DNA of 64,000 nt from an uncultured beta proteobacterium (GTDB lineage Bacteria > Pseudomonadota > Gammaproteobacteria > Burkholderiales > SG8-39). Below the pieces are notes generated by a model. It had not been told where the DNA came from, did no database searches, and worked only from the letters and a program-made list of their open reading frames with translations. The stretch is taken from NCBI GenBank assembly GCA_963716855.1, contig CAVQUV010000011.1:64378-128377 (forward strand), given 5' to 3'. The translations under genes and the position numbers were made by a program. Below, one piece after another: positions 19,413 to 57,695 of this stretch (the stretch's first letter is position 1; every line of letters starts with the position of its first letter).

Positions 19413-19455
19413 CAGCTACTGATCTGAATCAAATCCTTATGTTCGCTAGCGTACG
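19413..19455 (-). promoter_or_regulatory. box TGTTCGCTAGCGTACG (19440-19455), then 21 nt, then TAGCTG hexamer (19413-19418, minus strand): predicted promoter of Crp paralogue 1
   Basis: One of nine copies of the TGTGCGCT-AGCGCACA box. The spacing puts the box centre at about -41.5. Confidence 0.55.
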
Positions 19456-19495
19456 GAGCAACCCAGGGAAAGGTATTTAATAGGTGTTAGCTGAG

Positions 19496-19570
19496 ATGAA
19501 CAAGGCGATCGAGGTTGCACGTGGCATCAAGGGCGTGACCTTCGCCAAGAAGGACATGCGCGCGGGGTGA
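19496..19570 (+). other. BON-domain C-terminal remnant (24 codons)
   Basis: MNKAIEVARGIKGVTFAKKDMRAG resembles the last strand and helix of BON domains. There is no SD and no upstream domain. A similar remnant lies at 38037-38141. Confidence 0.35.
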
Positions 19571-19633
19571 CGGTGGATCGGACATTAGGCGGGACAACGC
19601 CCAAATGACTGACTGTCAATGAAAGGAAAGCAA

Positions 19634-19798
19634 ATGCTCTATTACGCCGCCATATTTCTTGTCATCGCGCTGATCGCTGCGCTACTCGGCTTTACCGGCA
19701 TCGCGGCCGGCGCCGTCGGGATCGCCAAGATCCTGTTCGTCGTATTTCTTCTCCTGTTCGTCGCCTCGCTTATCGTGGGACTGATACGTCGCGGGTGA
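19634..19798 (+). CDS. DUF1328 / UPF0391 small membrane protein (54 aa)
   Basis: [63 protein letters not shown] upstream. Below the ORF-track cutoff. Confidence 0.8.
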
Positions 19799-19839
19799 CG
19801 GCGGTACCGCGCGGGCGGCTGGCTCGGGGGGCACGTTAC

Positions 19840-21042
19840 CTACGCACGGGGGATTTCTCGAATGCTGCACCGGGCGGGGCCCGCTCTGAGGTTGGGGGCT
19901 GTCAGTCGGGCGCGAGCGGGCGAACGGTTTCTCGCGATCGCCGCCGCGACCGCCTCCCAGGTGGCGTTGAACGCTTCAGGCGTGAAGCCCGCGCCCGACG
20001 GCAGCCAGTTGCCGGTTTTCCCGCTCGCCAGCGTGTAGTGCCCGACCACATCGAGGTGATCGGCGCGCACGACGTGCAGCACCCGACCGTGCAACTGGCT
20101 CAGCGTCGGCACGATGCCGTCGCTGATGCCCGGAGTCGCCTTGAAGCCGAGCCCTCGATCGAGCACCCGCTGGGTCGCCTTGGTCGGTTTCGGATATGGG
20201 TAATGCGGGTGCGGCCGCGCCGTCAGTGCGTGCAGCAGCCTGAACAGCGCGCGCAGTGCGATGTACTCCGGATCCAGGAGCGTCTTCATCTCGAACCCCT
20301 CGCGGGGTTCCGGCACACCCGCGACGACGCAGCCGTAGTCGATCCCGGCACGATCCGAAACGGCTGCATCGAACAGCTCGATGCCCTCGGGCGTGAGCTG
20401 CAGCACCGCCCCCTGGTCCCGCTCGATCTCGCCGAGGTAGTTCCACACGGGGTCGCGGCGGTCGAACCGGATCTTGCGCAACAGGCTCTCGGCGATGCGA
20501 TCGAGCGGGGTATCCGTTCGCCCCAGCCAGTCGTCGACCCGTGCGACCAGCGCGATTGCCTTCGCCGCGGCGAGGATGGCGCCGCGTCCCTGCCCCGACG
20601 TCGCCAGGGCGCTGAGTATCAGCAGCAGTGTCTGGCCGTGGACGGTGATGAAGTGATTGGCGAGCGGCGTGCCGTGGTGCGGCGTGGTCACCGTGATGGC
20701 CGTCCTCGTCAGACGGGCAATGCGCTCTTCCGAGTCGCCGCTCGCGATCTTCACCCCGGGCGTCAGCAGCATGCGCACGTCGAGGCCGCCCGTCGAGTGG
20801 CCGACGAAGTGCAGGTCCCGGGCCTTAAGACCACCGCTGCCCAGCACCTGGCGCCGTAGCGCGTCGGCGCGCCGTGGGATCGAGGCCGTCGGCTGCGCCA
20901 TGCACCGCACGATGCGGGCCTCTACGCCGCGCCGGCGGAGCGCGCGGCCCAGTGCCTGCTCCACGTCCTCGAAATAGCTCACCGCCCCGAGGGACGTGAA
21001 GCCGAAGAAGCCCGGCACCAAGAACACGAGTCGTGTCGTCAT
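19840..21042 (-). CDS. alpha/beta hydrolase, lipase/esterase-like
   Basis: 400 aa. N-terminal LVFLVPGFFGF and nucleophile elbow GHSTGG. Confidence 0.7.
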   Translation of the reverse strand: MTTRLVFLVPGFFGFTSLGAVSYFEDVEQALGRALRRRGVEARIVRCMAQPTASIPRRADALRRQVLGSGGLKARDLHFVGHSTGGLDVRMLLTPGVKIASGDSEERIARLTRTAITVTTPHHGTPLANHFITVHGQTLLLILSALATSGQGRGAILAAAKAIALVARVDDWLGRTDTPLDRIAESLLRKIRFDRRDPVWNYLGEIERDQGAVLQLTPEGIELFDAAVSDRAGIDYGCVVAGVPEPREGFEMKTLLDPEYIALRALFRLLHALTARPHPHYPYPKPTKATQRVLDRGLGFKATPGISDGIVPTLSQLHGRVLHVVRADHLDVVGHYTLASGKTGNWLPSGAGFTPEAFNATWEAVAAAIARNRSPARARLTAPNLRAGPARCSIREIPRA

Positions 21043-21083
21043 GGCCGGATTATGCCGGCGAGCGCGAACCTCGCGGGTGGACC

Positions 21084-22345: not shown

Positions 22346-25300
22346 CTGAGATCGGCCGTTCTGCGCGCATTCGGGCGCGCGTCGCCGGACGCCCCGTGGG
22401 ATAACGACCGGTCCATCCGCGAGGAGCTCTTCGGTGTCGAGCGCCTCGAGCAGCATGCCGAGAGCCTTGCGGCGGCCCAGCCCGTCACCCCGATGCCGAC
22501 GACCGGGCGATCCCTCGCCGCGCGGCTGAAGGACAACGAGTCGGTTCTCCTCGAAGCGTATCGCGCCATCGCAAAGGCGGTCGGCGAAAGTCGCGCAATC
22601 ACGCCGGCCGCCGAGTGGCTGCTCGACAACTACCACCTCGTCGAAGAACAGATCCGCGAAATTCGCGACGATCTGCCGCCCGGCTACTACCGGCAATTGC
22701 CGAAGCTGGCCGCCGGACCGTTCGCCGGCTATCCGCGGGTGTTCGGCGTGGCGTGGGCCTTCGTCGCTCATACGGACAGCCGCTTCGACCCCGAGATGCT
22801 GCGCCGGTTCGTGCGCGCCTACCAGCGCGTTCAGCCGCTGACGATCGGGGAGCTGTGGGCGGTCGCGATCACGCTGCGAATCGTGCTCGTCGAGAACCTT
22901 CGCCGCAGCGCGCGCCGCATCGTGACGAGCCGCGCCGCGCGCCAGGAAGCAGACGCCTTGGCCGACCGGCTCCTGGGCGTGAACGCGCATGCGGCCGACG
23001 CGGCCGACCCGGTCGCCCTGCTCTGCTCTGCGCGATTACGAGCAGGCCCCCCTGCCGGAAGCGTTTGCCGTCCAGCTCGTGCAGCGGCTGCGGGACCAGG
23101 ATCCGCGGGTGACGCCGGCCCTGACGTGGCTCGAGGCTCGCCTCGCCGCGCAGGGAACGACCGCGGACGAGATGGTGCGCGACGAGCACCAGCGACAGGG
23201 CGCGACGAACGTGACGGTCCGCAACGTCATCACGAGCATGCGGCTGATCTCCGACGTCGACTGGCCGGCGCTCGTCGAGAGCGTCAGTCTCGTCGACGAC
23301 GCGCTGCGTTCCGGCAGCGACTTCGCGGCGATGGATTTTCCGACGCGCAACCTTTATCGGAGCGCAATCGAGGAGCTTGCGCGTGGTTCGGCGCTGAGCG
23401 AACTCGAGATTGCGCGTGCGGCGCTGTCGACCGCAAGCGCTCGCGGCGGCCGCGAGCGGGACCCGGGCTATCACCTGATTGCGGGGGGTCGCCGGGCGTT
23501 CGAGGGGACGGTCGGATTTCGTCCTCCCATTGGGAACTGGCTGGGTCGCTTCAATGCGACGATCGGTATCGGCGGCTATATCGGCGCCGTCATCGTCGTC
23601 GCCGCGGCCGTTCTCCTCCTGCCGTTGTTCGCGTTGTCCGGTGCGAATATCGGCGGCGAGTGGCTCGGTCTGCTCGCGCTCCTCGGGCTGATCCCCTCCA
23701 TCGATGCCGCGATGGCGCTCGTGAACCGCGGCGTCACGAAAGGGTTCGGTGCGTCGATCCTGCCGGGCCTCGAGCTGCGCGACGGCGTCCCTGCGCCGCT
23801 GCGCACCGTCGTGGCCGTTCCGATCCTGCTCACGACGCAGGCCGCAATCGAAGAGCAGATCGAGCGGCTGGAAATTCATTACCTCGCCAGCCCGGAGGGC
23901 GAGTTCTACTTCGCACTGCTGTCGGACTGGACGGACGCCGCGACCGAGACCGTCGAGGGTGATGCGGCGCTCGTCAGCGCGGTGGCCGCGGGCATCGAAG
24001 GCCTCAATCGCCGCTATGGACCTGCACCCGGCGGGCCGCGCTTCTTCCTGTTGCATCGCCGGCGGATCTGGAATCCAGGGCAGTCGCGGTGGATCGGATG
24101 GGAACGCAAGCGCGGCAAGCTGCATGAGCTGAACCGGCTGCTCCGCGGCGCGACCGATACGACCTTCGTCGGTAACGGCGCCGCGCCCTTTGCCCCGCCT
24201 CCCGCTCCGCCCGCCGGCGTCCGCTACGTCATCACGCTCGACGCCGATACCCGGATGCCGCGGGAAACGGCCCGGCGGCTGGTCGGCAAGATGGCGCACC
24301 CGCTGAACCAACCGCGGTTCGATGCCGGCACGCGACGGGTCGTCGAGGGCTACGGCGTGCTGCAGCCGCGCGTCACGCCGTCGCTGCCGATCGGCCGCGA
24401 GGGGTCGCTCTTCCAGCGCATCTTCTCCAGCACGAACGGCATCGATCCCTACGCCGCCGCCGTCTCCGACGTGTATCAGGATCTCTGCGGCGAGGGCTCC
24501 TACACCGGCAAGGGCATCTACGACGTGGATGCCTTCGAAGCGGCGCTCGAGGGCCGCGTGCCCGATAGCACGCTGCTCAGTCACGACCTGTTCGAAGGCA
24601 CCTTCGCCCGCGCCGGCCTTGCGTCCGATATCGAGGTCGTGGAGGAGTTTCCGTCACGCTACGACGTCGCGGCGGCGCGCCAGCACCGCTGGGTGCGCGG
24701 CGACTGGCAGCTGTTGTCATGGATTCTCGGCCGCGGCGATGCCGCGACCGGCGCACGGGGCAAGCGTGCGCTGCCGCTGATCGGCCGCTGGAAAATGCTG
24801 GATAACCTGCGCCGCTCGCTGTCCGCGCCGGCGAGCGTCGCCGCCTTGATCGCGGGATGGACACTGCCCCTGCAGGCGGCCGTCGTCTGGACCGGCTTCA
24901 TCCTGTCGACGATCGCGCTGTCGACGCTGATCCCCGTGCTCTCCGCGATCGTGCCGCGCCGCACCCGGATCACGGCACGCAGCCACCTGCGCGCCCTCGC
25001 CGCCGATGTCCGGCTCGCCCTGTCCCTGACCGCACTGCTGGTCGTATTCCTGGCTCACCAGGCCTGGTTGATGACGGATGCGATCGGGAGGACGCTGTTT
25101 CGTCTCCTCGTGAGCCACCGGCACCTGCTCGACTGGGTCACGGCCGCTCAGGCGACCATCGGCCCCCGGCTCGACCTCGCGGGGTTCTATCGCCAGATGA
25201 GCGGTGGCGTCGCCATCGCGGTCGTTGCCGCAATCGTCGTCGGCTGGGTCGGGAGCGACGCCTGGCTCGTGGCGGCGCCGTTCGTGATCGCCTGGCTCGC

Positions 25301-28300
25301 AGCGCCGGCCATCGCGCGCTGGACGAGCCTTTCGCCGCTCGTGGCGGGGCGCGTGTCGGTCTCGGCCGCGGACGCCCGCGCGCTGCGGCGGATCGCGCGC
25401 CGCACCTGGCGCTTCTTCGAGACCTTCGTGACGGCGGCGGACCACATGTTGCCGCCGGACAATTTCCAGGAAGAGCCGAAGCCGGCCGTCGCGCACCGCA
25501 CCTCCCCCACCAACCTCGGCCTCTACCTCCTCGCCGCCGTCAGCGCCCGCGATTTCGGATGGGCCGGGACCACCGAAACCGTCGACCGGCTGGAGGCGAC
25601 TCTCGCGACGATGGGTGGCCTGCAGCGGTTCCGCGGGCACTTCTACAACTGGTACGACACGCGGGATCTTCGCCCCCTGGATCCGCGCTACGTCTCGTCG
25701 GTGGACAGCGGCAATCTGGCCGGACACCTCATCGCGCTTGCGAACGCCTGCCGGGAGTGGATCGGCCGACCCGTAGCGAGCGCCGACCTCGTCGCCGGCG
25801 TCGACGACGCCCTGCAGCTCGCGCGCGAATCCCTGGAAGGACTGCCCGACGACCGGCGAACGCAGACGATCACCCGGCAGCAACTTGGCGATGCGCTCGA
25901 TGCGCTCGCTGCCGCGCTGTGGCAGGCACCGATCCCCGCCGCGGACATGGGTGCACGACTGGCGGAGATCGCGCCGCACGCCGCGACGATGGCGGACATC
26001 GCCCGCACGCTCGCCAGCGAACGCGGCGACGACGCCGGCGCCGAACTGCTGTTCTGGGCGGAGGCGACGCTGGGATCGATCGAGAGTCACCGCCGCGACG
26101 TTGCCGCCGCCGGCGACGCCGCGCGCGCCCTGGAACGCCGTCTCGCGACGCTCGCGGCGACGGCCCGATCGATGGCGGTCGCAATGGAGTTCGGGTTTCT
26201 CGTCGACCCGGATCGCAAGCTCCTCTCGATCGGCTACCGGGTCGCGGAGGGCGATCTCGATCCGAGCTGCTACGACCTGCTCGCCTCGGAGGCCCGTCTC
26301 GCGAGCTTCGTCGCGATCGCCAAGGGCGACGTGGCCTCGCGGCACTGGTTCCGGCTCGGTCGCGCCGTCACCCCGGTCGGACGCGGCGCCGCGCTGATCT
26401 CCTGGTCGGGATCGATGTTCGAGTACCTGATGCCCTCGCTCGTCATGCGCGCGCCGGCCGGCAGTCTGCTCGAGCAGACGAGCCGCCTCGTCGTTCGGCG
26501 GCAGATCGCCTATGGCGACGCGCTCGGTGTGCCCTGGGGGGTTTCGGAATCCGCGTACAACGTCCGCGACCTGGAGTTCACCTATCAGTATTCGAACTTC
26601 GGCGTCCCGGGGCTGGGCTTGAAACGCGGTCTCGGCGAGAACGCCGTCGTCGCGCCTTACGCGACGGCGCTCGCGGCCATGGTCGATCCGGGCGCCGCGG
26701 CGCGGAACTTCGACCGGCTCGCGGCCGTCGGCGCGCGCGGCCGTTACGGCTTCTACGAGGCCCTCGACTACACGCCCACGCGTCTGCCCGAGGGGAAGGA
26801 CGTCGCGATCGTCCGTGCCTTCATGGCGCACCATCAGGGCATGACGGTCGTCGCCCTCGCGAACGGTCTCCTGGACGGGGCGATGCGGGCGCGGTTTCAT
26901 GCCGAGCCGATCGTGCAGGCGACGGAGCTGCTGCTGCAGGAACGCACGCCGCGCGATGTCGCGGTGGCACATCCCCGGGCGGAAGAAGTCGCGACGGCCG
27001 CGACGGTCCGCGACCTGGAGCTGCCGGCGGTGCGACGGCTCCACTCCGCGCACGACGCCACGCCGCAGGCGCACCTGCTTTCGAACGGCCGGTACGCGGT
27101 GATGCTGACGGGCGCCGGCTCCGGGTACAGTCGCTGGGGCGACATCGGGATCACGCGCTGGCGCGAGGACGTCACCCGGGACGACTGGGGCGCCTACGTC
27201 TTCCTGCGCGACGTGCAGAGCGGTGACGTGTGGTCCGCGGGCTACCAGCCGAGCGGCGTCGAACCGGACCGCTACGACGTCACGTTCACCGAGGATCGTG
27301 CCGAGTTCATCCGGCGCGACGGATCGATCACCACGACGCTCGAGGTCGTCGTCTCGCCGGAGGACAACGCGGAGGTGCGCCGCGTCTCCGTCGCGAACTC
27401 GAGCAGCCGGGCGCGGGACATCGAGCTGACTTCGTACGCCGAACTCGTGCTGGCGCCGAGCGCGGCGGACGCGTCGCATCCGGCCTTTTCCAAGCTCTTC
27501 GTGCAAACCGAGTATCTCGCCAGGCTCGGCGCCATCCTGGCGACGCGGCGGCGTCGCTCCCCCGACGAGCCGGAGATCTGGGCCGCGCATCTCGCCGTCG
27601 TCGAAGGCGAAGCGGTGGGCGAGCCCGAGATCGAAACCGACCGGGCGCGCTTCCTCGGCCGCGGGCGCGAGGTCCGCGCGCCGATCGCCGTCATGGACGG
27701 ACGGCCGCTTTCCAACACCGTCGGCACGGTGCTCGATCCGATCTTCGCGCTGCGCCGCCGCGTGCGGGTGCCGCCGGGCAGGACGGTGCGCATTGCATTC
27801 TGGACGGTCGCCGCGACGTCCCGCGCTGAGGTACTGGACCTGATCGACAAGCATCACGACGCAACGGCCTTTGAGCGCGCCGCCACGCTGGCGTGGACCC
27901 AGGCGCAGGTGCAATTGAGTCACCTCGGCATCGACGCGGAGGAAGCGGGCCTCTTTCAGCGTCTCGCGGGCCACGTGCTGTACGCCGATCCGTCGCTGCG
28001 CCCTTCGTCCGACGCCATCCGCCGTGGCGGCGCCGGGCCGGAGGCGCTGTGGGCGCAGGGCATCTCCGGCGACCTGCCGATCGTGCTGGTGCGGATCGAC
28101 AGCACCGAGGACATCGCCATCGTCCGCCAGTTGCTGTGCGCCCACGAGTACTGGCGGATGAAGCAGCTCGCCGTCGATCTCGTGATCCTGAACGAGCGCG
28201 GATCGTCCTATATCCAGGATCTTCAGACCGCCCTGGAGACGCTCGTCCGGACGAGCCGTTCCCGACCGCAGATGGCGGTGGACCCCGCGCACGGCGGCGT

Positions 28301-30913
28301 ATTCGTACTGCGTGCCGATCTCGTTCCGGCCGAGACACGCGCCCTTCTGCTCTCCATGGCCCGCGCGGTGCTCGTGGCACGGCGCGGCACGCTCTCCGAG
28401 CAGCTCGAGAGTCCCCGGCAAGACGATTCGGCGCGACGCGCCCTCCCGGGCGCGTACCGTCCGAAGGCCTTCCGCAGACCGTTCCGGTGCCGCCGGACCT
28501 GGAGTTCTTCAACGGGCTCGGCGGATTCGCCGGGGACGGCCGCGAGTACGTGACGATCCTTGGCGCCGGGCGGTCGATCGCCGGCGCCGTGGATCAACGT
28601 CGTCGCCAACCCCGGTTTCGGGTTTCAGGTCGCGGTCGAGGGCAGCGGCTACACGTGGTCGCTCGGCAGTCGCGAGAATCAGCTCACGCCCTGGTCGAAC
28701 GACCCGGTCACCGATCGGCCGGGCGAGGCGCTCTATGTGCGCGACGAGGACTCGGGCGCGCTGTGGGGGCCGACGGCCCTGCCGATTCGTCACGAGGCCG
28801 CACCCTACGTCGCCCGGCACGGCCAGGGCTACAGCCGCTTCGAGCACACCGCGCACGGCATCGCGCTCGATCTCCTCCAGTTCGTGCCGCTCGAGGATCC
28901 GATCAAGATCTCGCGGCTGACGATCCGGAACCTGTCGGCGCGCACCCGTCGACTCTCGGTCACGGCCTATGTCGAGTGGGTGCTCGGCCCGTCCCGCAGC
29001 GCGTCCGCACTCTCGGTCGTGACGGAGATCGATCCGGAGACCGGCGCGATGTTCGCGCGCAATCCCTGGAACACGACGTTCGGCGCGCGTGTCGCGTTCG
29101 CGGATCTGGGCGGACGCCAGACCGCCTGGACGGGCGACCGGCGCGAATTCCTGGGGCGCAACGGCACGCTCGACAACCCGGCCGCGCTTGCCGGAGACAC
29201 GGCCCTCTCGCAGCGGGTCGGCGCGGGCCTCGATCCGTGCGGTGCGCTGCAGGCCCCGGTCGAGCTCAAGCCGGGCCGCACGGTGGAGATCGTCTTCCTC
29301 CTCGGCGAGGCGGCGACGGCCGCCGATGCGCAAGCCCTGATCGCTCGCTACCGGGTCGCCGATCTCGATGCGGTGCTGCGCGAGGTCGTCGCGCATTGGG
29401 ACGATGTGCTCGGCACGGTGCAGGTGAAAACGCCGGACCGGTCGATGGACCTCATGCTGAATCGGTGGCTGCTCTATCAGACGCTCGCCTGCCGCGTGTG
29501 GGCGCGCGTCGGCGTTCTACCAGGCGAGCGGCGCGTACGGTTTCCGCGACCAGCTCCAGGACGGCATGGCGCTCGCGCTGTCGCGACCGGCGCTGACGCG
29601 CGCGCATCTCCTGCGCGCCGCGGCCCGCCAGTTCGTCGAAGGCGATGTCCAGCACTGGTGGCTGCCGCCGTCCGGACAGGGCGTGCGCACCCGGATCTCA
29701 GACGATCGGGTCTGGCTCGCCTATGCCGCCGCGCACTACGTCGAGACCGACCGGCGACGCTCGCGGTGCTGGACGAGCCGGTTCCGTTCCTCGAAGGCCA
29801 GGCGCTGCGGCCGGGCGAGCACGACGCCTACTTCCAGCCCATGGTCGCCGACGAGAGCGCGCGCTCTTCGAGCACTGCGCGCGCGGGCTCGATCAGAGTC
29901 TCGGCCGTCGGCGCGCACGGCCTGCCGCTGATCGGCACGGGCGACTGGAACGACGGCATGAACCGCGTCGGTGAGCACGGCAAAGGCGAAAGCGTCTGGC
30001 TCGGCTGGTTCCTGCACGCGACGCTGACGGCGTTTGCGCCGCTCGCGAAGGCGCGCGGCGAAGAGGCGCGCGGCCGCAGTGGCTCGCGCACGCGGCCGCA
30101 CTGCGAACCGCGCTCGAGCAAGACGGCTGGGACGGCGACTGGTACCGGCGCGGCTACTTCGACGACGGCACGCCGCTCGGTTCGGCCACGAGCGAGGAAT
30201 GCCGGATCGACTCGATCGCGCAATCGTGGAGCGTGCTCTCGGGGGCGGCGCGAGCCGACGCGTGCCGTGCGTGCGATGGCTGCCATGGACGAGCAGCTCA
30301 TTCGTCGCGACGAAGGTCTGGCGCTGCTGTTCACGCCGCCGTTCGATCGCACGCCGCTCGATCCGGGTTACATCAAGGGCTATCCGCCGGGCATCCGCGA
30401 GAACGGCGGCCAGTACACGCACGCCGCCGATCTGGTCGGTGATCGCCTTCGCGCGCTGGGCAACGGCGACAAGGCGCGAGCTATTCTGCGATGCTGAATC
30501 CGATCAATCGCACGAGCACGCGCGGCGGCGTCGCAACGCTACAAGGTCGAGCCATACGTAGTCGCCGCCGACGTCTACTCGGTCGCCCCGCACGTTGGGC
30601 GCGGCGGCTGGACGTGGTACACGGGCTCGGCCGGTTGGCTGTATCGCGCCGGCCTCGAAGCCATTCTCGGTTTTCGCTTGCAGGGCGCGGTGCTGTCCCT
30701 GGCGCCCTGCATCCCGAAGGCGTGGCCGCGCTTCGAAATTACGTCTTCATGTACCGCTCGGCGCGCTACGAGATCGCGGTCGAGAATCCCAACGGGGTCA
30801 ACCGTGGTGTCGCGCACGCGGAGTTGGACGGCACGACGCTGACCGATGGCGCGACGCGAGTTCCGCTCGCGGATGACGGTCAGGTCCACACGGTACGCGT
30901 GATTCTCGGGTAG
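22346..30913 (+). pseudogene. ndvB: cyclic beta-1,2-glucan synthase (NdvB/ChvB/Cgs type: GT84 glycosyltransferase plus GH94 phosphorylase), multiple frameshifts, start unresolved
   Basis: Readable from ..WDNDRSIREELFGVERLEQHAESLAAAQ (22397 onward), through 6 TM segments and the GT domain, to the GH94 end ..GGWTWYTGSAGWLYRAGLEAILGF...YEIAVENPNG..VHTVRVILG stop at 30913. There is one frame change near 23025-23040, none from 23040 to 28430, and about 15 between 28430 and 30745. No ATG/GTG/TTG lies in frame upstream of 22493 (only CTG at 22346). Confidence 0.85.
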
Positions 30914-31944: not shown

Positions 31945-32042
31945 GCGCTCTCTGCACAAGTCCCCGATGGGCGGGACTGCTGCGCGAGCGAGGCGTCGTG
32001 GCATTGCCGTCGGATCGAGGTAGCCGCCTGTTCAACACCCCC

Positions 32043-32717: not shown

Positions 32718-32886
32718 GCGTGCTCCCGATCCAGGGTGCGATAGCGTACAGACAGACCTCGACTAGAGAGAGGAAATTGACGGTGGCGCGCACACGGCGT
32801 GTCGGTGTTGGGTTTCCGGTCGTGATTGGCGCCGATGCCGATTCGAGGTCTGCCACGTTGTTGCCTTTACCTTAAGGAAGATGATC

Positions 32887-33018
32887 ATGATCCACAAGTT
32901 TCTTGCCATAGCTGTCGCCGCATTAATCGCGCTGCTTGCTGGCTGCCACACGATGGACGGTTTTGGACAGGACGTGGAGCGCGGTGGCCAAAAGATTCAG
33001 GACAAGGCCAACAAGTAG
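32887..33018 (+). CDS. entericidin EcnA/B-family lipoprotein (43 aa)
   Basis: MIHKFLAIAVAALIALLAGCHTMDGFGQDVERGGQKIQDKANK with lipobox LAGC. AAGGAAG SD upstream (an alternative ATG at 32881 is too close to the SD). Below the ORF-track cutoff. Confidence 0.75.
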   Translation: MIHKFLAIAVAALIALLAGCHTMDGFGQDVERGGQKIQDKANK

Positions 33019-33399
33019 CCGCGTCACCGCCGATATCCATTCCGTCGATCCGCACGTCGGGCGCGGCGGATCGATCCGGTATGCCGGCTCGTCCGGTGGA
33101 TTATGCGGGATCGGCATAGAACCGATCCTCGGCTCTTGCCTACAGGGAGCGTTCGTACCCCTGCCTCCCTGCATCCGCAAGGCGTGACCTCGGATCGCGA
33201 TTATCGCTGCGCGCTACGAGATCGCGATGGCGAAGCCGTAAAGCGGAAAGCCGACCGTTGCAGCAAGCCGGTGTTCGCTGCCGCACAGACGTCGGCAGCA
33301 TGTCCGCGTAGATTCGCTTCAAAGCTACGGATCCGGAAGACATCTTCTGCCCGTTGCCAAAGTGGTCCCCCAGATTCATCGCTTCGATAGGGAAAGTTC

Positions 33400-38383: not shown

Positions 38384-38426
38384 AGGGTAACGCCGGCGAC
38401 GGGTATGGTCAGTACGCTAGCGCACA
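38384..38426 (-). promoter_or_regulatory. box TGTGCGCTAGCGTACT (rc of 38411-38426), then 21 nt, then TACCCT (rc of 38384-38389): predicted promoter of DUF3309 copy 1
   Basis: Identical 16-mer to the box at 57000-57015. Box centre at about -41.5. Confidence 0.6.
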
Positions 38427-40914: not shown

Positions 40915-41335
40915 GTCCTTTCGGCCTGGCGGTTTCGAACGAAGCGCTTGCCGATGACGCGTCATCGCAGGCCGACCCGCGCCGCACGCGATCTGCGCGC
41001 CACGTCGAAAACTCCAAAGCAGCGTAGCCACAAGACCTGCCGCCGTCGGTGCGGTGGCGCACATCAGGTCGCGTCGATGCGACCAGTCGCGTCAGACCGT
41101 GCTGCATAGACAGGGGCATGCACACGCGATTGCGCTGTCAGCCAAGAAGCGCCGCGGCACCTATGGCTCTCACGATCTCCATGAGCGCTGGCGCACAGAC
41201 GAGCCGCGACGTTCTGATCCCGTATCCTGTCGATCTCAGGGCAAATGGTGACTCGCCGTGGGCATCCGTCCGGGAAAGGTCATTCCCTGACGGACACCGC
41301 GATCCCATCTCTTATCTCACGTGAAGGAGAAAGAC

Positions 41336-43101: not shown

Positions 43102-43144
43102 ATTGTGCTCGCGCTCAGTGAGCCCCTCTGTGCGCTGTCGAACA
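43102..43144 (-). promoter_or_regulatory. box TGTGCGCTGTCGAACA (43129-43144), then 21 nt, then CACAAT (rc of 43102-43107): predicted promoter of DUF3309 copy 3
   Basis: 13/16 match to the palindromic consensus, with the same spacing rule. Confidence 0.5.
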
Positions 43145-43471: not shown

Positions 43472-43510
43472 GGTGACTTCCTTTGCGCGCTAGAGTGAAT
43501 CGTGGCGCCG

Positions 43511-43554
43511 ATTGTCCCCCGGCCTTCCCGGGATGCTCTGTGCGCTCCCGTACG
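43511..43554 (-). promoter_or_regulatory. box TGTGCGCTCCCGTACG (43539-43554), then 22 nt, then GACAAT (rc of 43511-43516): predicted promoter of the DUF3096 gene
   Basis: The left half TCTGTGCGCT is identical to the boxes at 44390 and 57000. Confidence 0.45.
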
Positions 43555-43682: not shown

Positions 43683-43725
43683 TGTGCGCTGACAGACAGA
43701 CCGTGGAAAACCTTCCCGGTATCGT
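43683..43725 (+). promoter_or_regulatory. box TGTGCGCTGACAGACA (43683-43698), then 21 nt, then TATCGT (43720-43725): predicted promoter of the lmo0937-family gene
   Basis: Conserved TGTGCGCT half-site and exact 21-nt spacing. Confidence 0.5.
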
Positions 43726-43950: not shown

Positions 43951-43987
43951 CGATTTCGCGGCCCCAGCAAGAGGATCGGAAAGAAGG

Positions 43988-44215: not shown

Positions 44216-44389
44216 GAAGCCGGAGCGGCTCGCCGAGTCGCGACGGTCACCGCGGGGTCCCGCTAGGCATTGGATTGCGCCGGGCGCGCCGGTAACCTTC
44301 CGAACGGCCATCGTCCGATCGACAGCGGTCGCCGTATCGCGGCCGAATCACGCCGAACAGCCCACTCGCCAGCCCTCTCTGTGCGCTTG

Positions 44390-44405
44390 CGCACTGAGAG
44401 TGTTA
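44390..44405 (+). promoter_or_regulatory. box TGTGCGCTTGCGCACT, 29 nt upstream of the Crp paralogue 2 start and only 8 nt from a TACCCT hexamer (likely autoregulatory operator)
   Basis: 14/16 match to the consensus. Its geometry differs from the other eight boxes. Confidence 0.5.
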
Positions 44406-44433: not shown

Positions 44434-45168
44434 ATGGATATGGCAGCAGCGGCTGCGCCGAGAACTCCCGAAACGAACAGGCTCCTAGCGGTCCTGCCGT
44501 CGGCCGCCCGCGAACACCTCTATCCCCACCTCGAGCCGGTCTCGATGGCGCTCGGGGAGGTCGTCTACGAATCGGGTAGCCGGCAGGACTACGTCTACTT
44601 CCCCACGACCTCGATCGTGTCCCTGCTCTACGTCATGGAGGACGGGTCGTCCGCCGAAATTGCCGTGGTGGGCAACGAGGGAATGGTCGGTGTTTCACTC
44701 TTCATGGGAGGTGAGACCACCCCGAGCCGCGCCATCGTGCAGAGCGCCGGCGCGGCGTTCCGGCTTTCGGGGAAGCTGCTGAAGCGCGAATTCACTCGCG
44801 CCGGACCGATGCAGCATCTGTTGCTGCGCTATACCCAGGCATTGCTGACGCAGATGGCGCAGACGGCGGTCTGCAACCGGCATCATTCGGTGGATCAACA
44901 GCTCTGCCGGTGGCTGCTGCTGAGTCTCGATCGACTGCCCTCCAACAAGCTGACCATGACGCAGGAATTGATCGCCAATATGCTCGGGGTCCGCCGCGAA
45001 GGGGTCACGGAAGCCGCCGGGAAGTTGCAGGGCGCCGGCTTGATCCGCTACAGCCGTGGCCGCATCACGGTGCTGGATCGGCCGGGACTGGAGGCCCGGG
45101 CTTGCGAGTGCTACGACGTGGTCAAGCGGGAGTCCGATCGCCTGCTCCCCAATATGCTCGCGACGTGA
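44434..45168 (+). CDS. Crp/Fnr-family transcriptional regulator (paralogue 2)
   Basis: 244 aa. cNMP-binding fold (..YVYFPTTSIVSLLYVMEDGSSAEIAVVGNEGMVG..) and C-terminal HTH NMLGVRREGVTEAAGKLQGAGLI. Confidence 0.9.
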   Translation: MDMAAAAAPRTPETNRLLAVLPSAAREHLYPHLEPVSMALGEVVYESGSRQDYVYFPTTSIVSLLYVMEDGSSAEIAVVGNEGMVGVSLFMGGETTPSRAIVQSAGAAFRLSGKLLKREFTRAGPMQHLLLRYTQALLTQMAQTAVCNRHHSVDQQLCRWLLLSLDRLPSNKLTMTQELIANMLGVRREGVTEAAGKLQGAGLIRYSRGRITVLDRPGLEARACECYDVVKRESDRLLPNMLAT

Positions 45169-45519: not shown

Positions 45520-46200
45520 CTAGCAGAGGATGCGGTCGTACACGTTTTCCGCCGACCGATAGCACCCGCAGGCGGCCGCTTCCAGGCCGCGGCGAGCAAG
45601 GACCGTGATGTTGCCGCGGCGGTAGCGAATCAGCTTTCGCCTCTGCAGCGCCCCTGCCGCCTTGGTGACACCGACCCGGCGCACCCCGAGCATGTCGGCG
45701 AGGAGCTCGTGGGTCAGATGGAACTCGTCCGCGTGGGCCCGGTCGTGCGTCATCAGCAGCCAGCGGGCGAGGCGCGCCTCCAGTAGGTGGAAGCGCGTAC
45801 ACGCGGCCGTCTGCGCGAGCTGCGCCATCGTCACGTAGAGGTAGCGATTCAGTTCGCGCTGCAGGGCAGCGCTGATGGCGAGCTCGCGCAGGAACGGCGC
45901 AGCATCCATTCGCATCGCGGCGCCCGAGCCCTGGACCAGCGCGCGGAGGGGTGAGACGTCGACGCCTAGCATGAACGTGATCCCGAGCATGCCTTCACTG
46001 CCAACGAGCCCCACTTCCAGGCTCGTGCAGCCGTCGCGCGGCGTCAGCAGCGAGATGAAGCCCTCGGTGGGGAAGTAGACGTGCCGGATCCGGTCGCCGG
46101 GCTCGCAGAGCACATCGGCGAACGCGAGCTCGACCCGCTCGCAGCCCGCAAGCAAATGCTCGCGGTCCTTGCGGGGCAACGCCGCAATCAGAGCATTCAT
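45520..46200 (-). CDS. Crp/Fnr-family transcriptional regulator (paralogue 3)
   Basis: Start [17 protein letters not shown]. ..[34 protein letters not shown].. and [26 protein letters not shown]. 226 aa. Confidence 0.85.
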
Positions 46201-46276
46201 GGCGGGGACGCGCCGCGTGGACGACACTGAAGACTCTCCCGAAGGCTTGAGGGAACTCGTCAGAGGGCAGGAGAAG

Positions 46277-46319
46277 AACGTACAGGAGAATCGAGCTCCA
46301 GTACGTTCGCTAGCGCACG
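46277..46319 (-). promoter_or_regulatory. box CGTGCGCTAGCGAACG (rc of 46304-46319), then 21 nt, then TACGTT (rc of 46277-46282): predicted promoter of Crp paralogue 3
   Basis: Nearly identical to the box in front of paralogue 1 (GTTCGCTAGCGYACGGAGC shared). Confidence 0.55.
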
Positions 46320-46481: not shown

Positions 46482-46727
46482 ATGGAATTTCTCTGGTTCA
46501 TACTGATTGGCATGGCTGCCGGATGGCTGGCGGGACAGTACATGGGTGACGGCGGCTTCGGCGTTGTCGGCGACATCGTAATGGGCGTAGCGGGCGCCAT
46601 GGTCGGCGGGTATCTATTCCATCAGCTCGGCCTGTCTGCCGGGGGCGGGCTGATCGGCGCCTTGATCGTTGCGACGATCGGCGCGGTGGTCCTGCTATTC
46701 ATGGGCCGCATGGTCAAGCGCGCCTAG
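46482..46727 (+). CDS. GlsB/YeaQ/YmgE-family stress membrane protein
   Basis: MEFLWFILIGMAAGWLAGQYMGDGGFGVVGDIVMGVAGAMVGGYLF.., 81 aa. Confidence 0.85.
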   Translation: MEFLWFILIGMAAGWLAGQYMGDGGFGVVGDIVMGVAGAMVGGYLFHQLGLSAGGGLIGALIVATIGAVVLLFMGRMVKRA

Positions 46728-55843: not shown

Positions 55844-56469
55844 GCGCGCCTCCGCCAGACGCTCGCCAGCCAGGGCTGCCGTTCGCGCGGCAGGCCGGCG
55901 GGACGGTAGTAGTGAGCGAGCTCGACGAACCCCGCGGCCGACAGGTAGCGGCGCCAATTCTCGAGATCGTGGTACGCCCCGTAGCGTCCGCCGCTCCAGC
56001 CTTCTGCATTGTGGCCGTGAGGGTTCGAGCTGAAGAGCACCCCGCCCGGCTTCAGCGTTGCGTGCAATTCCAGCAACACGCGCGGCAATTCCTGGCTGGG
56101 GACGTGAAACAGTGCGGCGTTCGCGAACACGCCGTCGAACCGCCCCTGCGGCAGGTCGAGCTTGAGGAAGTCCTGCTGCCATACCTCGCAGCCGCTGTCG
56201 GCACGCGCCATCTCGGCGAAGCGCGCGGCGCCCTCCAGGCCGACCGCGGTGTGGCCGAGGTCGGTAAACACTTTGAGATCGCGCCCCGGTCCGCAGCCGA
56301 GGTCGAGGATCGTGAACGGCGGCGCGCCCTCGATGTATCGCAGCAGCGCGGCGATATTCTGGCTGACGTCGTGATCCTGCGTGCCTTGCCGGAAATCCTC
56401 GGCACGCTGGTTGTAATGCTCGAGCGTGAGATCGGCGATCTCGTCCAGGTCTCGCCCACTCAGCTTCAT
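55840..56469 (-). CDS. class I SAM-dependent methyltransferase
   Basis: Start MKLSGRDLDEI. Motif I ILDLGCGPGRD and LKPGGVLF. 209 aa. Confidence 0.8.
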   Translation of the reverse strand: MKLSGRDLDEIADLTLEHYNQRAEDFRQGTQDHDVSQNIAALLRYIEGAPPFTILDLGCGPGRDLKVFTDLGHTAVGLEGAARFAEMARADSGCEVWQQDFLKLDLPQGRFDGVFANAALFHVPSQELPRVLLELHATLKPGGVLFSSNPHGHNAEGWSGGRYGAYHDLENWRRYLSAAGFVELAHYYRPAGLPRERQPWLASVWRRRA

Positions 56470-56661
56470 GTCGCATTCACCGCCGCGCGGCCCTTCCGCT
56501 CGGCCCGATTCCAATTGCCCTTGTGGCGTACGACGAGCGCCTTCATGGCGACGATGATACGGGACCGCCAGCGAGCGGGGCGTCAGCCGCTCTTGGTCGA
56601 CGCAGGCCCCTAAAGCGGCCACCTACCCAGGAAGGTAGAGTTGCTCAGCGAGTGGCGCCGC

Positions 56662-56964
56662 TCACTGCGGGACTCCCCTCACAAGCGGAATGCGCTCAAC
56701 AGGAAAATTCCCTTCCCAACCGCAGCCCATCGACCGGCAGCGATAACGGTGTCGCGGCCGGATCAGGCTGATCACGCGGTCGATAAGCCGGCGCTTCACG
56801 CGGATGAGATCGGCAGACCACCCGGAGCCACGACATCGCGGGCACTTAAGTTGGAGAGATGCTTCCACTGCTTCCTCGCGATCGTAGTTAAAGAAAAGGC
56901 CCGGAACGGGGAGACCGAAACCGGGCCAAGTAATGCAGGTGTTCATCAGGGAGGAGCTAAACAC
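56662..56964 (-). CDS. small zinc-ribbon protein
   Basis: CPRCRGS ... YRCRSMGCGWEG forms a CxxC...CxxxC pair. Start is either GTG at 56964 or ATG at 56943. Confidence 0.5.
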   Translation of the reverse strand: MFSSSLMNTCITWPGFGLPVPGLFFNYDREEAVEASLQLKCPRCRGSGWSADLIRVKRRLIDRVISLIRPRHRYRCRSMGCGWEGNFPVERIPLVRGVPQ

Positions 56965-56972
56965 CTGTCGCT

Positions 56973-57015
56973 ATCATCCCCGCGCTCCCCCAGAGAGTCT
57001 GTGCGCTAGCGTACT
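56973..57015 (-). promoter_or_regulatory. box TGTGCGCTAGCGTACT (57000-57015), then 21 nt, then GATGAT (rc of 56973-56978): predicted promoter of the zinc-ribbon gene
   Basis: 16-mer identical to the one at 38411-38426. Confidence 0.5.
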
Positions 57016-57164
57016 TAGGGCGCAGTGGGGTCTCCCGCAACGTAGCTCACCTTCGCCCGCCGCAGGGCCTGCACGCCGAAATCGGACGGGTTGCCGCCAA
57101 CGGCCGTGCCGGCGAAGCACGCCAGACAACCGATCGCCAGCCGCATCAGGGTCGCGCGTCTCAT
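57015..57164 (-). CDS. possible small secreted/lipoprotein (49 aa)
   Basis: MRRATLMRLAIGCLACFAGTAVGGNPSDFGVQALRRAKVSYVAGDPTAP. No clear SD. Confidence 0.3.
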   Translation of the reverse strand: MRRATLMRLAIGCLACFAGTAVGGNPSDFGVQALRRAKVSYVAGDPTAP

Positions 57165-57652
57165 GTCTAGACGATCATCGGCGCGCGGCGACCGTAGGTC
57201 TGTACGCCGACGTACAGACCCCTCCTCTACCCCGGAGCAGGCTCGACGCGGGTTGGCCGATGCGGCGCTTCGGGCGCCGCTTGACCCGGTCGCTCGAGAG
57301 AGACTTTGCCCTGCGCTTCCTTGACGATGTGCTGGCTGGTGCGCTCCCATTTCCGGCGGCGTGCTTCATCCGACATGGCGGACGCGAGCGCAGCGTTGGG
57401 CTGAGCCGTAAGGTCGAGCGCTGACAGCAGTCGGTCGAGTTTCATGCGCTACACCACCCACCCATTCGCCCCGGTTCGGAGCACCCCCATCATAGGCCCT
57501 GGGTGGTCGGCATCCCGCGTTTGTTTTGGTGCAGGCTGAGGCGCGCGTTGCCCGCTGGCTGTTGATGGCGCGCGATCGGTTGCGCTCCAGCGAGTTCCGC
57601 GTCACGCGCAAATCACTCGCCTTCATGTATGGGAGGCATTCCTCCGACCCAA

Positions 57653-57695
57653 TGTGCGCTGCCGCACCGAGCGCTGTCGGCGCTTGAGCTAGCTT
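57653..57695 (+). promoter_or_regulatory. box TGTGCGCTGCCGCACC (57653-57668), then 21 nt, then TAGCTT (57690-57695): predicted promoter of the YeaQ-like gene
   Basis: 13/16 match to the consensus and exact 21-nt spacing. Confidence 0.5.

What the first reader, a model, noticed from the sequence alone, without database searches (positions are those of the whole stretch)
19413..57695. Nine-copy TGTGCGCT-AGCGCACA box at a fixed 21-nt distance from -10-like hexamers: candidate regulon of the three Crp/Fnr paralogues driving tiny stress-protein genes
Nine intergenic 16-mers fit a (pseudo)palindrome TGTGCGCT|AGCGCACA. This is TGTG-N8-CACA, the half-site spacing of CRP sites. The copies are:
- 19440-55 TGTTCGCTAGCGTACG
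- 38411-26 (rc) TGTGCGCTAGCGTACT
- 43129-44 TGTGCGCTGTCGAACA
- 43539-54 TGTGCGCTCCCGTACG
- 43683-98 TGTGCGCTGACAGACA
- 44390-405 TGTGCGCTTGCGCACT
- 46304-19 (rc) CGTGCGCTAGCGAACG
- 57000-15 TGTGCGCTAGCGTACT
- 57653-68 TGTGCGCTGCCGCACC

The exact 8-mer TGTGCGCT occurs in seven of them. I did not see it elsewhere by eye.

Reading toward the adjacent gene, eight of the nine boxes are followed by exactly 21 nt (22 nt in one case) and then an NANNNT hexamer: TACCCT, TATCGT, TAGCTT, TAGCTG, TACGTT, CACAAT, GACAAT, GATGAT. This puts the box centre near -41.5, the classical class II CRP/FNR activation geometry.

Downstream genes are Crp paralogues 1 and 3, two DUF3309 copies, DUF3096, the lmo0937-family peptide, a zinc-ribbon protein and a YeaQ-like protein. 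The ninth box, in front of Crp paralogue 2, sits 8 nt from a TACCCT hexamer, which looks more like an operator.

Paralogues 1 and 2 carry V-R-R-E-x-V-T in the recognition helix. This keeps the Arg-Glu pair that CRP uses for the G:C pairs of TGTGA. Paralogue 3 has R-R-V instead.

I know of no described regulon with this box.
Basis: partly seen in the sequence, partly recalled or inferred. Interest (0 to 1): 0.78.

Follow-up and report, generated by a model that had tools for sequence, protein, structure and literature searches.

The report
Conserved CRP-type stress regulon box
A 16-20 bp palindrome sits exactly where an activator of the CRP/FNR family docks on RNA polymerase, in front of about a dozen tiny stress-protein genes and of the regulator genes themselves; the same arrangement recurs in hundreds of soil Beta- and Gammaproteobacteria, and I found no description of this widespread stress regulon in the literature I could search.

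Summary
The window holds 14 copies of the palindrome T-n-TGTRCGCT·AGCGYACA-n-A, not nine. All 14 are intergenic; about 0.1 oriented matches are expected by chance.

The box ends 21 (±1) nt before a TANNNT hexamer. That puts its centre at -41.5, the class II CRP/FNR geometry.

- **Conservation.** In 80 loci from other genomes that encode the same Crp subfamily (73-90 % identical), the box is enriched about 45-fold. The 21-nt rule holds there, and the box precedes the same gene families: DUF3309, DUF3096, CsbD, DUF1328, YeaQ/GlsB, BON, the second Crp type and sensor kinases.
- **Reverse test.** Of 120 metagenome contigs found by the box alone, 40 carry the regulator.
- **Covariation.** The recognition-helix residue equivalent to CRP Glu181 covaries with the fourth base of TGTG.

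Best explanation: the "Crp2-type" regulator activates a stress regulon and a second regulator (Crp3-type). In this clade it probably represses its own gene.

Nothing was tested experimentally, and the signal is unknown. I found no published description. This is a new member of a known kind.

The parts
44434..45168 (+). Crp2-type regulator (244 aa), the proposed binder of the box; recognition helix GVRREGVTEAAGK
   Evidence: Pfam HTH_Crp_2 and cNMP_binding are both above threshold. The AlphaFold model has a CRP/GlxR fold, TM about 0.7. Homologues 73-90 % identical occur in 80 genomes. At least 8000 protein clusters match at E<=1e-20.
45520..46227 (-). Crp3-type regulator (235 aa), helix [13 protein letters not shown]; a box-driven target and probable second tier of the cascade
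   Evidence: It pairs with a Crp2-type gene in 36-45 of about 82 loci. 27 of 47 such genes have a box in class II geometry.
18499..19354 (-). Crp1, a Crp2-like paralogue split by a 1-nt insertion near 19005 (pseudogene or assembly error)
   Evidence: tblastn matches it in two frames.
19440..19455 (.). Box 1, TGTTCGCTAGCGTACG. On the + side, TTTAAT lies at 19476-81 before a BON relic and DUF1328 (19619-19798). On the - side, TAGCTG lies at 19413-18 before Crp1.
   Evidence: PWM 25.9/23.9 bits; hexamers; DUF1328; BON relic.
32735..32750 (+). Box 2 (new), GGTGCGATAGCGTACA; GAAATT at 32773-78; target is an entericidin-type lipoprotein gene, 32887-33018
   Evidence: Pfam Entericidin.
33272..33287 (+). 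Box 3 (new), TGTTCGCTGCCGCACA; TAGATT at 33309-14; target is a 67-aa membrane protein, 33400-33603
38411..38426 (-). Box 4; TACCCT at 38384-89; target is DUF3309 copy a, 38159-38317. Terminator-like hairpins flank the unit. Dps and the AI-2E transporter follow on the same strand.
   Evidence: PWM 27.7 bits; Pfam DUF3309; hairpins at 38448-32 and 38155-41.
41048..41063 (-). Box 5 (new); TACGCT at 41021-26; target is a 157-aa membrane protein, 40492-40965. Fe/Mn superoxide dismutase (39770-40423) follows on the same strand.
   Evidence: SOD.
41182..41197 (+). Box 6 (new); irregular, with TATCCT 25 nt away; target is a 24-aa hydrophobic peptide, 41336-41410
   Evidence: The peptide has homologues in 4 loci, 3 of them with a box upstream.
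43129..43144 (-). Box 7; CACAAT at 43102-07; target is DUF3309 copy b, 42871-43029. An M48 peptidase gene follows on the same strand.
   Evidence: M48.
43539..43554 (.). Box 8. On the - side, GACAAT lies at 43511-16 (22 nt) before DUF3096, 43322-43471. On the + side, TAGTCT lies at 43576-81, reading toward DUF5670.
43683..43698 (+). Box 9; TATCGT at 43720-25; target is DUF5670 (lmo0937 family), 43801-43950
44380..44395 (+). Box 10, before Crp2. It is followed by 8 nt and TACCCT (44404-09), so the box centre is near -28.5: an operator-like position suggesting autorepression.
   Evidence: The same layout occurs in the closest relatives L001 (TAGACT) and L002 (TAAAGT).
46304..46319 (.). Box 11. 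On the - side, TACGTT lies at 46277-82 before Crp3. On the + side, a weaker TATCAA lies at 46341-46 before a Transgly_assoc (YeaQ/GlsB) gene, 46482-46727.
57000..57015 (-). Box 12; GATGAT at 56973-78; target is a 68-aa zinc-ribbon protein, 56662-56868
   Evidence: PWM 28.6 bits. Homologues occur in 6 loci, 3 with a box.
57201..57216 (-). Box 13 (new), TGTACGCCGACGTACA; GATGAT at 57174-79; target is a 49-aa ORF with high GC3 and a signal-peptide-like N-terminus, 57015-57164, possibly leaderless
57653..57668 (+). Box 14; TAGCTT at 57690-95; target is a YeaQ-like membrane protein, 57761 (or 57818) to 58075

Best explanation
The box is the DNA site of a distinct, uncharacterised subfamily of CRP/FNR transcription factors, here called the "Crp2 type" (helix GVRREGVTE).

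**Proposed mechanism.** A dimer binds the 20-bp palindrome TaTGTGCGCT·AGCGCACAtA. This site has the CRP register with C-G in place of A-T at positions 8 and 9. At most targets the site is centred at -41.5 and overlaps a weak -35 (only ..GAC..), 21 nt upstream of a TAnnnT -10. The regulator is therefore proposed to act as a class II activator that recruits sigma-70-type RNA polymerase.

**Targets.** They form a general-stress-like set:
- tiny membrane or secreted proteins: DUF3309, DUF3096, DUF1328, DUF5670, CsbD, YeaQ/GlsB, entericidin, glycine-zipper lipoprotein, BON/OsmY, DUF883;
- a zinc-ribbon protein, fatty-acid desaturases and GAF/PAS sensor kinases;
- a second regulator, the Crp3 type, which gives a two-tier cascade.

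In this window's clade the box before crp2 itself sits about 13 bp closer to the -10. That predicts negative autoregulation.

**Shown here:** sequence conservation, spacing, gene association and protein-DNA covariation.

**Inferred:** binding, activation, the direction of autoregulation and the stress signal. The canonical cAMP contacts are not aligned, and invariant Cys/His residues suggest a redox or metal input.
For: 1. **Chance excluded.** 14 sites against about 0.1 expected, all intergenic.
2. **Conserved near the regulator in 80 other genomes.** 652 oriented PWM hits of at least 12 bits in 1.36 Mb, against 14 in reversed-sequence controls.
3. **Spacing.** TANNNT peaks sharply at 21 nt: 34 of 194 orientations, against 0-4 at most other offsets and 8 at 22 nt. 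When sites are oriented only by the GA flank, A reaches 74 % at +38 and T 68 % at +42. In box-seeded metagenome contigs, 98 of 140 have NANNNT at 20-22 nt.
4. **Same target families across taxa**.
5. **Reverse association.** 40 of 120 contigs found by the box alone carry a Crp2- or Crp3-type gene.
6. **Covariation.** In loci whose regulator has RRE, the half-site fourth base is G 45 % and C 8 %. In loci with only RRS or RRP it is C 37 %, A 31 % and G 17 % (Fisher P 1.4e-5 and 3.5e-9). This residue aligns with CRP Glu181, which reads that base pair (established CRP biochemistry, recalled from memory).
7. **Weak -35.** None of the box promoters passes a sigma-70 consensus scan, as expected for activator-dependent promoters.
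8. **Crp3 is not required.** Loci without a Crp3-type gene still carry boxes, 63 sites in 599 kb. This points to the Crp2 type as the binder.
9. **Fold.** The regulator has a CRP/GlxR fold.
Against: - There is no experimental binding, start-site or expression data.
- The -10 and -35 assignments rest on sequence only.
- A site overlapping -35 could also repress.
- About 13-18 of the 80 loci have no good box within ±10 kb.
- Only about a third to a half of DUF3309 and DUF3096 homologues in the loci have a strong box within 300 nt.
- Site 41182 breaks the spacing rule.
- Which paralogue binds cannot be resolved. The fourth-base spectrum does not differ with the presence of Crp3.
- The covariation rests on only 11 loci with Ser/Pro variants and on a relaxed pattern.
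Confidence: 0.78

Rival explanations
1. The same Crp-subfamily protein binds the box but acts as a repressor. The site overlaps the -35 region of stress promoters that some other factor drives (for example sigma-S). The regulon would then be de-repressed when the protein leaves the DNA.
For: The box covers -49 to -34 and so overlaps -35. At crp2 of this clade it sits in a clearly operator-like position. In enterobacteria the same target families belong to the sigma-S regulon (PMC5437024).
Against: A spacing fixed to ±1 bp in hundreds of promoters from different genera is the hallmark of an activator that touches RNA polymerase. Repressor sites usually vary in position. The -35 elements are poor, so these promoters should need help.
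Confidence: 0.12
2. The box is bound by the Crp3-type paralogue, or by heterodimers, rather than by the Crp2 type.
For: Loci that carry Crp3 have 2.4 times more boxes per kb. The two genes are usually adjacent.
Against: Boxes and the 21-nt rule persist in loci without a Crp3-type gene. Crp3 lacks the Glu that covaries with the box. The Crp3 gene is itself the commonest box target.
Confidence: 0.07
3. The box is not a transcription-factor site. It would instead be a promoter element of an alternative (ECF-type) sigma factor, or the terminal repeat of a small mobile element or REP-like repeat.
For: It is repeated many times in one island that shows gene decay and a lower G+C content. It is carried on the mobile element pKLC102.
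Against: Both half-sites are conserved as a perfect palindrome, while the flanks beyond ±10 bp carry no information. Sigma elements are not palindromic. Mobile repeats would share flanks and would not keep 21 nt to a -10 hexamer in front of orthologous genes in distant taxa. The box also covaries with a regulator residue.
Confidence: 0.03

Closest known systems
Escherichia coli CRP (CAP) at class II promoters such as galP1
   Same: It has the same two-domain fold family. The palindrome has TGTG and CACA in the same register around a CT|AG centre. The Arg-Glu pair in the recognition helix is kept. The site is centred at -41.5 and overlaps a weak -35.
   Different: The half-site is TGTGCG instead of TGTGAT. 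The Arg185 equivalent is Glu. The cAMP-contact Glu72 and Arg82 are not aligned (alignment). Sequence identity to solved CRPs is only 14-23 %. The targets are stress peptides, not catabolic operons.
FNR/Anr/Dnr-type regulators, including the Anr-like lxa motif of Burkholderia cenocepacia
   Same: Same superfamily. They act mostly as class II activators at -41.5, occur as several paralogues per genome, and control survival under stress (PMC3721108).
   Different: Their box is TTGAT-N4-ATCAA, reported as TGA-N6-TCA for lxa. The proteins here have no N-terminal Cys cluster. The B. cenocepacia homologue locus L082 has no FNR-like boxes.
Actinobacterial CRP/GlxR and Sinorhizobium Clr (closest solved structures)
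   Same: They are the best Foldseek matches (TM 0.65-0.72). Clr binds TGTT-N8-AACA, the same spacing (from memory).
   Different: They bind cAMP or cGMP, share about 20 % identity, and have different boxes and regulons.
General stress regulons driven by sigma factors (sigma-S in enterobacteria, sigma-B in Listeria and Bacillus)
   Same: The target families are the same. ecnB, yjbJ (CsbD) and ytjA (DUF1328) are tightly sigma-S-controlled in Salmonella (PMC5437024). lmo0937 (DUF5670) is 54-fold sigma-B-dependent in Listeria (PMC2813243).
   Different: Here the common promoter signal is an activator site plus an ordinary -10, not an alternative-sigma promoter.

Membership tests
CRP/FNR superfamily of transcription factors | C-terminal Crp-type helix-turn-helix domain | tested here: met
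   PF13545 scores 58.1 bits for Crp2, 56.4 for Crp3 and 61.8 for Crp1, against a cutoff of 27.
CRP/FNR superfamily of transcription factors | N-terminal cNMP-binding-like beta-barrel followed by a long dimerisation helix | tested here: met
   PF00027 scores 32.8 bits for Crp2 (cutoff 27.5). Crp3 reaches only 17.7 bits. The AlphaFold model shows a barrel plus helix 124-150, and its Foldseek top hits are GlxR, Mtb CRP and FNR.
CRP/FNR superfamily of transcription factors | Palindromic DNA site with 5-bp half-sites about 6 bp apart, commonly centred at -41.5 for activation | tested here: met
   The site reads TGTGC-N6-GCACA. It lies 21 nt from the -10 in the window and in about 200 other loci. 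The position relative to the true start site is inferred, not measured.
CRP proper (cAMP receptor protein) | cAMP-binding residues (E72, R82, S83 in E. coli numbering) | tested here: not met
   In the HMMER alignment to GlxR the Glu position is a gap and the Arg aligns with Thr. The segment 87-93 has pLDDT below 50. This is alignment-level evidence only.
CRP proper (cAMP receptor protein) | Consensus site TGTGA-N6-TCACA | tested here: not met
   Position 5 of the half-site is C in 172 of 183 sites and position 6 is G in 178 of 183.
FNR/Anr | N-terminal Cys cluster for a [4Fe-4S] centre, and a TTGAT-N4-ATCAA box | tested here: not met
   There are no Cys residues in the first 140 residues of Crp2. 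The box is different.
Sigma-factor general stress regulons (sigma-S, sigma-B, EcfG) | A shared alternative-sigma promoter (for example GGAAC-N16-17-CGTT for EcfG, recalled from memory) | tested here: not met
   The shared upstream element is a palindrome. The only other conserved elements are GAC and TAnnnT with a 17-bp spacer.

The most novel reading that the evidence does not exclude
A very widespread and horizontally mobile CRP-family master regulator could be a third architecture for a bacterial general stress or dormancy response in Beta- and Gammaproteobacteria. It would use an activator rather than a sigma factor.

- The family has at least 8000 protein clusters and is also cargo of the P. 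aeruginosa element pKLC102.
- It would have its own DNA code (TGTGCG).
- It would run a two-tier Crp2-to-Crp3 cascade.
- It would use a non-nucleotide sensor built from the invariant Cys147/His151/Cys224/Cys226.
- It would co-ordinate dozens of tiny membrane proteins of unknown function.
Probability: 0.3. Interest if true: 0.78.

Novelty: new member of a known kind. Interest (0 to 1): 0.6.

Why it matters
If correct, this gives a precise and testable regulatory code for a large group of "domain of unknown function" mini-proteins: DUF3309, DUF3096, DUF1328, DUF5670, CsbD and YeaQ/GlsB.

- It names their probable master regulator in many soil, plant-associated and clinical Proteobacteria, including Cupriavidus, Paraburkholderia, Burkholderia, Ralstonia, Variovorax, Dyella and Rhodanobacter, and Pseudomonas aeruginosa clone C through pKLC102.
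- It shows that the same stress gene set that sigma-S or sigma-B controls elsewhere can be wired through a CRP-type activator.
- The Glu-to-Ser/Pro covariation with the fourth base of TGTG is a natural specificity-swap experiment for the CRP recognition code.

The mechanism itself, a CRP/FNR protein acting at -41.5, is textbook. The advance is a new regulon and subfamily, not a new principle.

Tried and rejected
- **Low-oxygen lxa regulon of B. cenocepacia.** I asked whether this is the same regulon. Its motif is the Anr-like TGA-N6-TCA (PMC3721108). The B. cenocepacia homologue locus has no FNR-like boxes. Rejected.
- **EcfG-type promoter (GGAAC..CGTT).** I considered it because of GGAAA..CGTT near 43683. 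The spacing is wrong and it is not conserved. Rejected.
- **Paralogue-specific box variants.** I tested whether the fourth base (G, A or T) depends on the presence of Crp3. There is no difference.
- **Rfam.** A scan of the whole window found no RNA family, so box-driven sRNAs are neither supported nor excluded.
- **Exact-protein lookup of Crp2.** The protein is not on record.
- **NCBIfam.** Only far-below-threshold NtcA/CRP hits.
- **Sequence search of the PDB.** Only distant CRP-family relatives.
- **Cys/His geometry.** I could not measure distances between the invariant residues because the model coordinates are not exposed.
- **Literature.** Searches for the box strings, the DUF names with Crp/Fnr, BerA/Bcam1349, BCAM1351 and pKLC102 found no description of this regulon. 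The library lacks most subscription journals, so absence is not proof.
- **L060 as a reference for the GH94 gene.** It appears frameshifted itself, so I used the C. necator locus L040 instead.

Full report

The window is G+C-rich: 63-71 % overall, with a lower-G+C stretch at 32-44 kb. The 8-mer TGTGCGCT occurs nine times against 2.9 expected. The 16-mer TGTGCGCTAGCGCACA with up to three mismatches occurs 11 times against 0.44 expected, and no shuffle reaches 11.

One coordinate is off by ten: 44380-44395, not 44390-405.

A 20-nt weight matrix derived from related genomes finds 14 sites of at least 14 bits in the window and none between 10 and 14 bits. Markov simulations give 0.12 oriented hits. 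The five additional sites are at 32735, 33272, 41048, 41182 and 57201.

All 14 sites lie in the roughly 28 % of the window that a crude codon-usage gene map leaves non-coding (P about 2e-8). Two further TGTGCGCT 8-mers, at 37290 and 40286, are not boxes.

**2. Anatomy in the window.**

Read toward the adjacent gene, the box is followed by 21 nt (22 in two cases) and then a TAnnnT-like hexamer at eleven sites. The hexamers include TACCCT, TATCGT, TAGCTT, TACGTT, TAGATT, TACGCT, CACAAT, GACAAT, GATGAT (twice) and GAAATT. Site 41182 has TATCCT at 25 nt.

The downstream genes are:
- DUF3309, two copies (38159-38317 and 42871-43029);
- DUF3096 (43322-43471);
- DUF5670, the lmo0937 family (43801-43950);
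- DUF1328 (19619-19798);
- an entericidin-type lipoprotein (32887-33018);
- a 67-aa membrane protein (33400-33603);
- a 24-aa hydrophobic peptide (41336-41410);
- a 157-aa membrane protein (40492-40965);
- a 68-aa zinc-ribbon protein (56662-56868);
- a 49-aa secreted-type peptide (57015-57164);
- two YeaQ/GlsB-like proteins (46482-46727 and 57761-58075);
- the regulators Crp3 and Crp1.

Larger stress genes lie downstream on the same strand as some of these units and may be co-transcribed. They are Dps, an AI-2E transporter, Fe/Mn superoxide dismutase and an M48 peptidase. Co-transcription is inference only.

None of the box promoters passes a sigma-70 consensus scan. Terminator-like hairpins bracket the DUF3309a unit.

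**3. The regulators.**

Crp2 (44434-45168) and Crp3 (45520-46227) both have the Crp-type HTH domain, and Crp2 has the cNMP-binding-like domain above threshold. Crp1 (18499-19354) is a Crp2-like gene interrupted by a one-base insertion.

- The recognition helices read GVRREGVTE in Crp1 and Crp2 and GVRRVGVTK in Crp3.
- No specific NCBIfam model matches, and no close solved structure exists.
- An AlphaFold model (pLDDT 77) has the CRP fold. Its best structural matches are GlxR, M. tuberculosis CRP and FNR, at 15-23 % identity.
- The family is very large: at least 8000 90 %-identity clusters at E<=1e-20, all with generic names.

**4. Comparative test starting from the regulator.**

A scan of one genome per species returned 80 loci (±10 kb) that encode Crp2 homologues 73-90 % identical. 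Most are Burkholderiales and other Betaproteobacteria, Xanthomonadales/Lysobacterales, Chromatiales and methylotrophs. A few are Spirochaetota or Terriglobales MAGs.

- **Enrichment.** In these 1.3 Mb the box occurs 160 times at up to 3 mismatches. The PWM gives 652 oriented hits of at least 12 bits, against 14 in reversed-sequence controls.
- **Full motif.** It is a 20-bp palindrome, T-n-TGTRCGCT·AGCGYACA-n-A. The promoter-proximal flank is almost always GA(C). With a 17-bp spacer, that GAC aligns with the GAC of a TTGACA -35.
- **Spacing.** TANNNT hexamers downstream of the box peak at offset 21: 34 of 194 orientations, 8 at offset 22 and 0-4 at most other offsets. When sites are oriented only by the GA flank, which avoids circularity, position +38 is A in 74 % and +42 is T in 68 %.

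With the -10 at -12 to -7, the box spans -49 to -34 and is centred at -41.5. This is the class II geometry.

**5. Conserved targets.**

Proteins encoded downstream of oriented boxes in the 80 loci were clustered:

| Family | Promoters | Loci |
|---|---|---|
| Crp family itself | 39 | 35 |
| GAF/PAS histidine kinases | 17 | 12 |
| CsbD | 12 | 12 |
| DUF3309 | 8 | 7 |
| BON/OsmY-like | 7 | 7 |
| Secreted repeat protein | 5 | 4 |
| DUF3096 | 5 | 5 |
| Glycine-zipper lipoprotein | 5 | 4 |
| YeaQ/GlsB | 4 | 4 |
| Fatty-acid desaturase | 4 | 4 |

Smaller clusters include DUF4398, the zinc-ribbon protein, DUF883, DUF1328, DUF5670 and a roughly 2900-aa GH94 glucan synthase.

Homologues of the window's tiny proteins carry an oriented box within 300 nt in a third to three quarters of cases.

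In other lineages these families are known members of sigma-factor general-stress regulons. In Salmonella, sigma-S tightly controls ecnB, yjbJ (CsbD) and ytjA (DUF1328) (PMC5437024). In Listeria, lmo0937 is 54-fold sigma-B-dependent (PMC2813243).

**6. Reverse test starting from the box.**

These contigs are mostly short, yet the results were clear:
- 40 carry a Crp2- or Crp3-type gene (about 40 % of contigs longer than 2 kb);
- 50 carry at least one of the window's regulon families;
- together they hold 273 distinct sites of at least 16 bits;
- 98 of 140 oriented seeds have NANNNT at 20-22 nt.

**7. Protein-DNA covariation.**

The box has the CRP register. Compare TGTGATCT|AGATCACA for CRP with TGTGCGCT|AGCGCACA here. 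Crp2 Arg188 and Glu189 align with CRP Arg180 and Glu181. CRP Arg185 is Glu193 here (my alignment of the helices; the roles of the CRP residues are established knowledge recalled from memory).

| Regulator helix in the locus | Loci | Sites per 10 kb | Half-site 4th base |
|---|---|---|---|
| RRE | 68 | 1.8-2.7 | G 45 %, C 8 % |
| only RRS or RRP | 11 | about 0.6 | C 37 %, A 31 %, G 17 % |

The 11 Ser/Pro loci are from Paraburkholderia, Cupriavidus, Caballeronia, Pandoraea, a Bordetella MAG, Rhodanobacter and B. cenocepacia. With a pattern blind to the fourth base, the differences give P = 1.4e-5 for G and 3.5e-9 for C.

CRP Glu181 reads exactly this base pair. The covariation therefore ties the box to this protein family, and to the Crp2 type rather than Crp3.

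Boxes persist in loci without a Crp3-type gene, and their fourth-base spectrum does not depend on Crp3.

**8. Circuit logic.**

A Crp3-type gene accompanies Crp2 in 36-45 of about 82 loci. It usually lies about 200 nt downstream, with a box between the two genes. Of 47 Crp3-type genes, 27 have a class II box.

Crp2-type genes vary: 20 have class II geometry, 11 have a box followed by 7-9 nt and a hexamer, and 35 have no box. In the window and its two closest relatives (L001 and L002) the crp2 box is followed by 7-8 nt and then TACCCT, TAGACT or TAAAGT.

I therefore propose negative autoregulation of crp2 in this clade and feed-forward activation of crp3. Both are inference.

**9. Signal.**

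- The canonical cAMP contacts are not aligned, and the corresponding loop is modelled with low confidence.
- Cys147, His151, Cys224 and Cys226 are invariant across 42 family members, including Crp3. They lie at the hinge after the dimerisation helix and at the start of an extra C-terminal helix. A redox or metal input is plausible. I could not measure distances in the model.

**10. Known or new?**

- The lxa low-oxygen regulon of B. cenocepacia uses an Anr-type TGA-N6-TCA motif (PMC3721108). The B. cenocepacia homologue locus lacks FNR boxes. These are different regulons.
- No paper in the searchable library contains the box or links these DUF families to a Crp/Fnr regulator. The library is incomplete, so this is absence of evidence only.
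- The regulator, several boxes, a GH94 glucan synthase and a desaturase are cargo of the P. aeruginosa element pKLC102 (NC_019202.1). Homologues also sit on plasmids and chromids of Ralstonia, Burkholderia, Cupriavidus, Acidovorax and Variovorax. There they are annotated only as "Crp/Fnr family transcriptional regulator".

**11. Verdict.**

The interpretation, a class II CRP/FNR-type regulon of tiny stress proteins, is supported by four independent kinds of comparative evidence, but not by experiment.

It is a new member of a known kind: an ordinary mechanism, but an apparently undescribed, very widespread subfamily with its own DNA code and a conserved set of targets of unknown function.

- Confidence in the binding-site and activator reading: about 0.78.
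- Interest: 0.6.

Noticed in passing
window 18499-19354 (-), break near 19005: Crp paralogue 1 is split into two frames by a single inserted base (GGC GAA T AGC, which creates a TAG stop). It is either a pseudogene or an assembly error.
   Followed up: partly
window about 22400-30900 (+): There is a roughly 2800-aa GH94 cyclic-glucan-synthase-like gene, the same gene that accompanies the regulator in pKLC102 and in several loci. Relative to the Cupriavidus necator homologue it has an in-frame stop at 28551 and frame changes near 29508, 29750 and 30750. No box lies upstream of it in this window.
   Followed up: partly
window 38509-38619 (+) and 57538-57633 (+): Two short relics of further Crp3-type genes: a C-terminal fragment and a fragment of the helix before the HTH. 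Each lies next to a box. This indicates rearrangement and decay of the island.
   Followed up: partly
window 19484-19570 (+): The 24-28-aa ORF directly behind box 19440 (MNKAIEVARGIKGVTFAKKDMRAG) matches the C-terminal end of BON-domain (OsmY-like) proteins, which are box targets in other loci. It is probably the remnant of a deleted BON gene upstream of DUF1328.
   Followed up: partly
Crp2 residues C147, H151, C224, C226 (window 44434-45168): Four Cys/His residues are invariant across 42 family members, including Crp3. They lie at the hinge and in an extra C-terminal helix, while the canonical cAMP-contact residues are not aligned. They may form a redox or metal sensor. Distances could not be measured.
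   Followed up: partly
L081 = NC_019202.1 (P. aeruginosa pKLC102) 93.0-99.8 kb: The regulator (WP_009875850.1), at least five boxes, the GH94 gene, a methyltransferase and a fatty-acid desaturase form a cargo module next to the MobH relaxase and the integrase of this conjugative element.
   Followed up: partly
window 57015-57164 (-): A 49-aa ORF with high GC3 and a signal-peptide-like N-terminus starts only 9 nt after the -10 hexamer of box 57201. It is a candidate leaderless mRNA. No homologue was found in the fetched loci.
   Followed up: partly
window 32000-44000: This stretch has lower G+C (about 63 % against 67-71 % elsewhere). It is dense in stress genes (alternative oxidase, Dps, Fe/Mn SOD, AI-2E transporter, M48 peptidase, DUF1345) and holds eight of the 14 boxes. 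No tRNA gene or integrase was seen in the window.
   Followed up: no
L060 (MAG MFD05580.bin.2.20), about 10900-19400: The GH94 homologue in this related MAG locus hops between reading frames relative to the window. Some related MAG assemblies therefore carry indel errors, so frameshift calls should be treated with caution.
   Followed up: no
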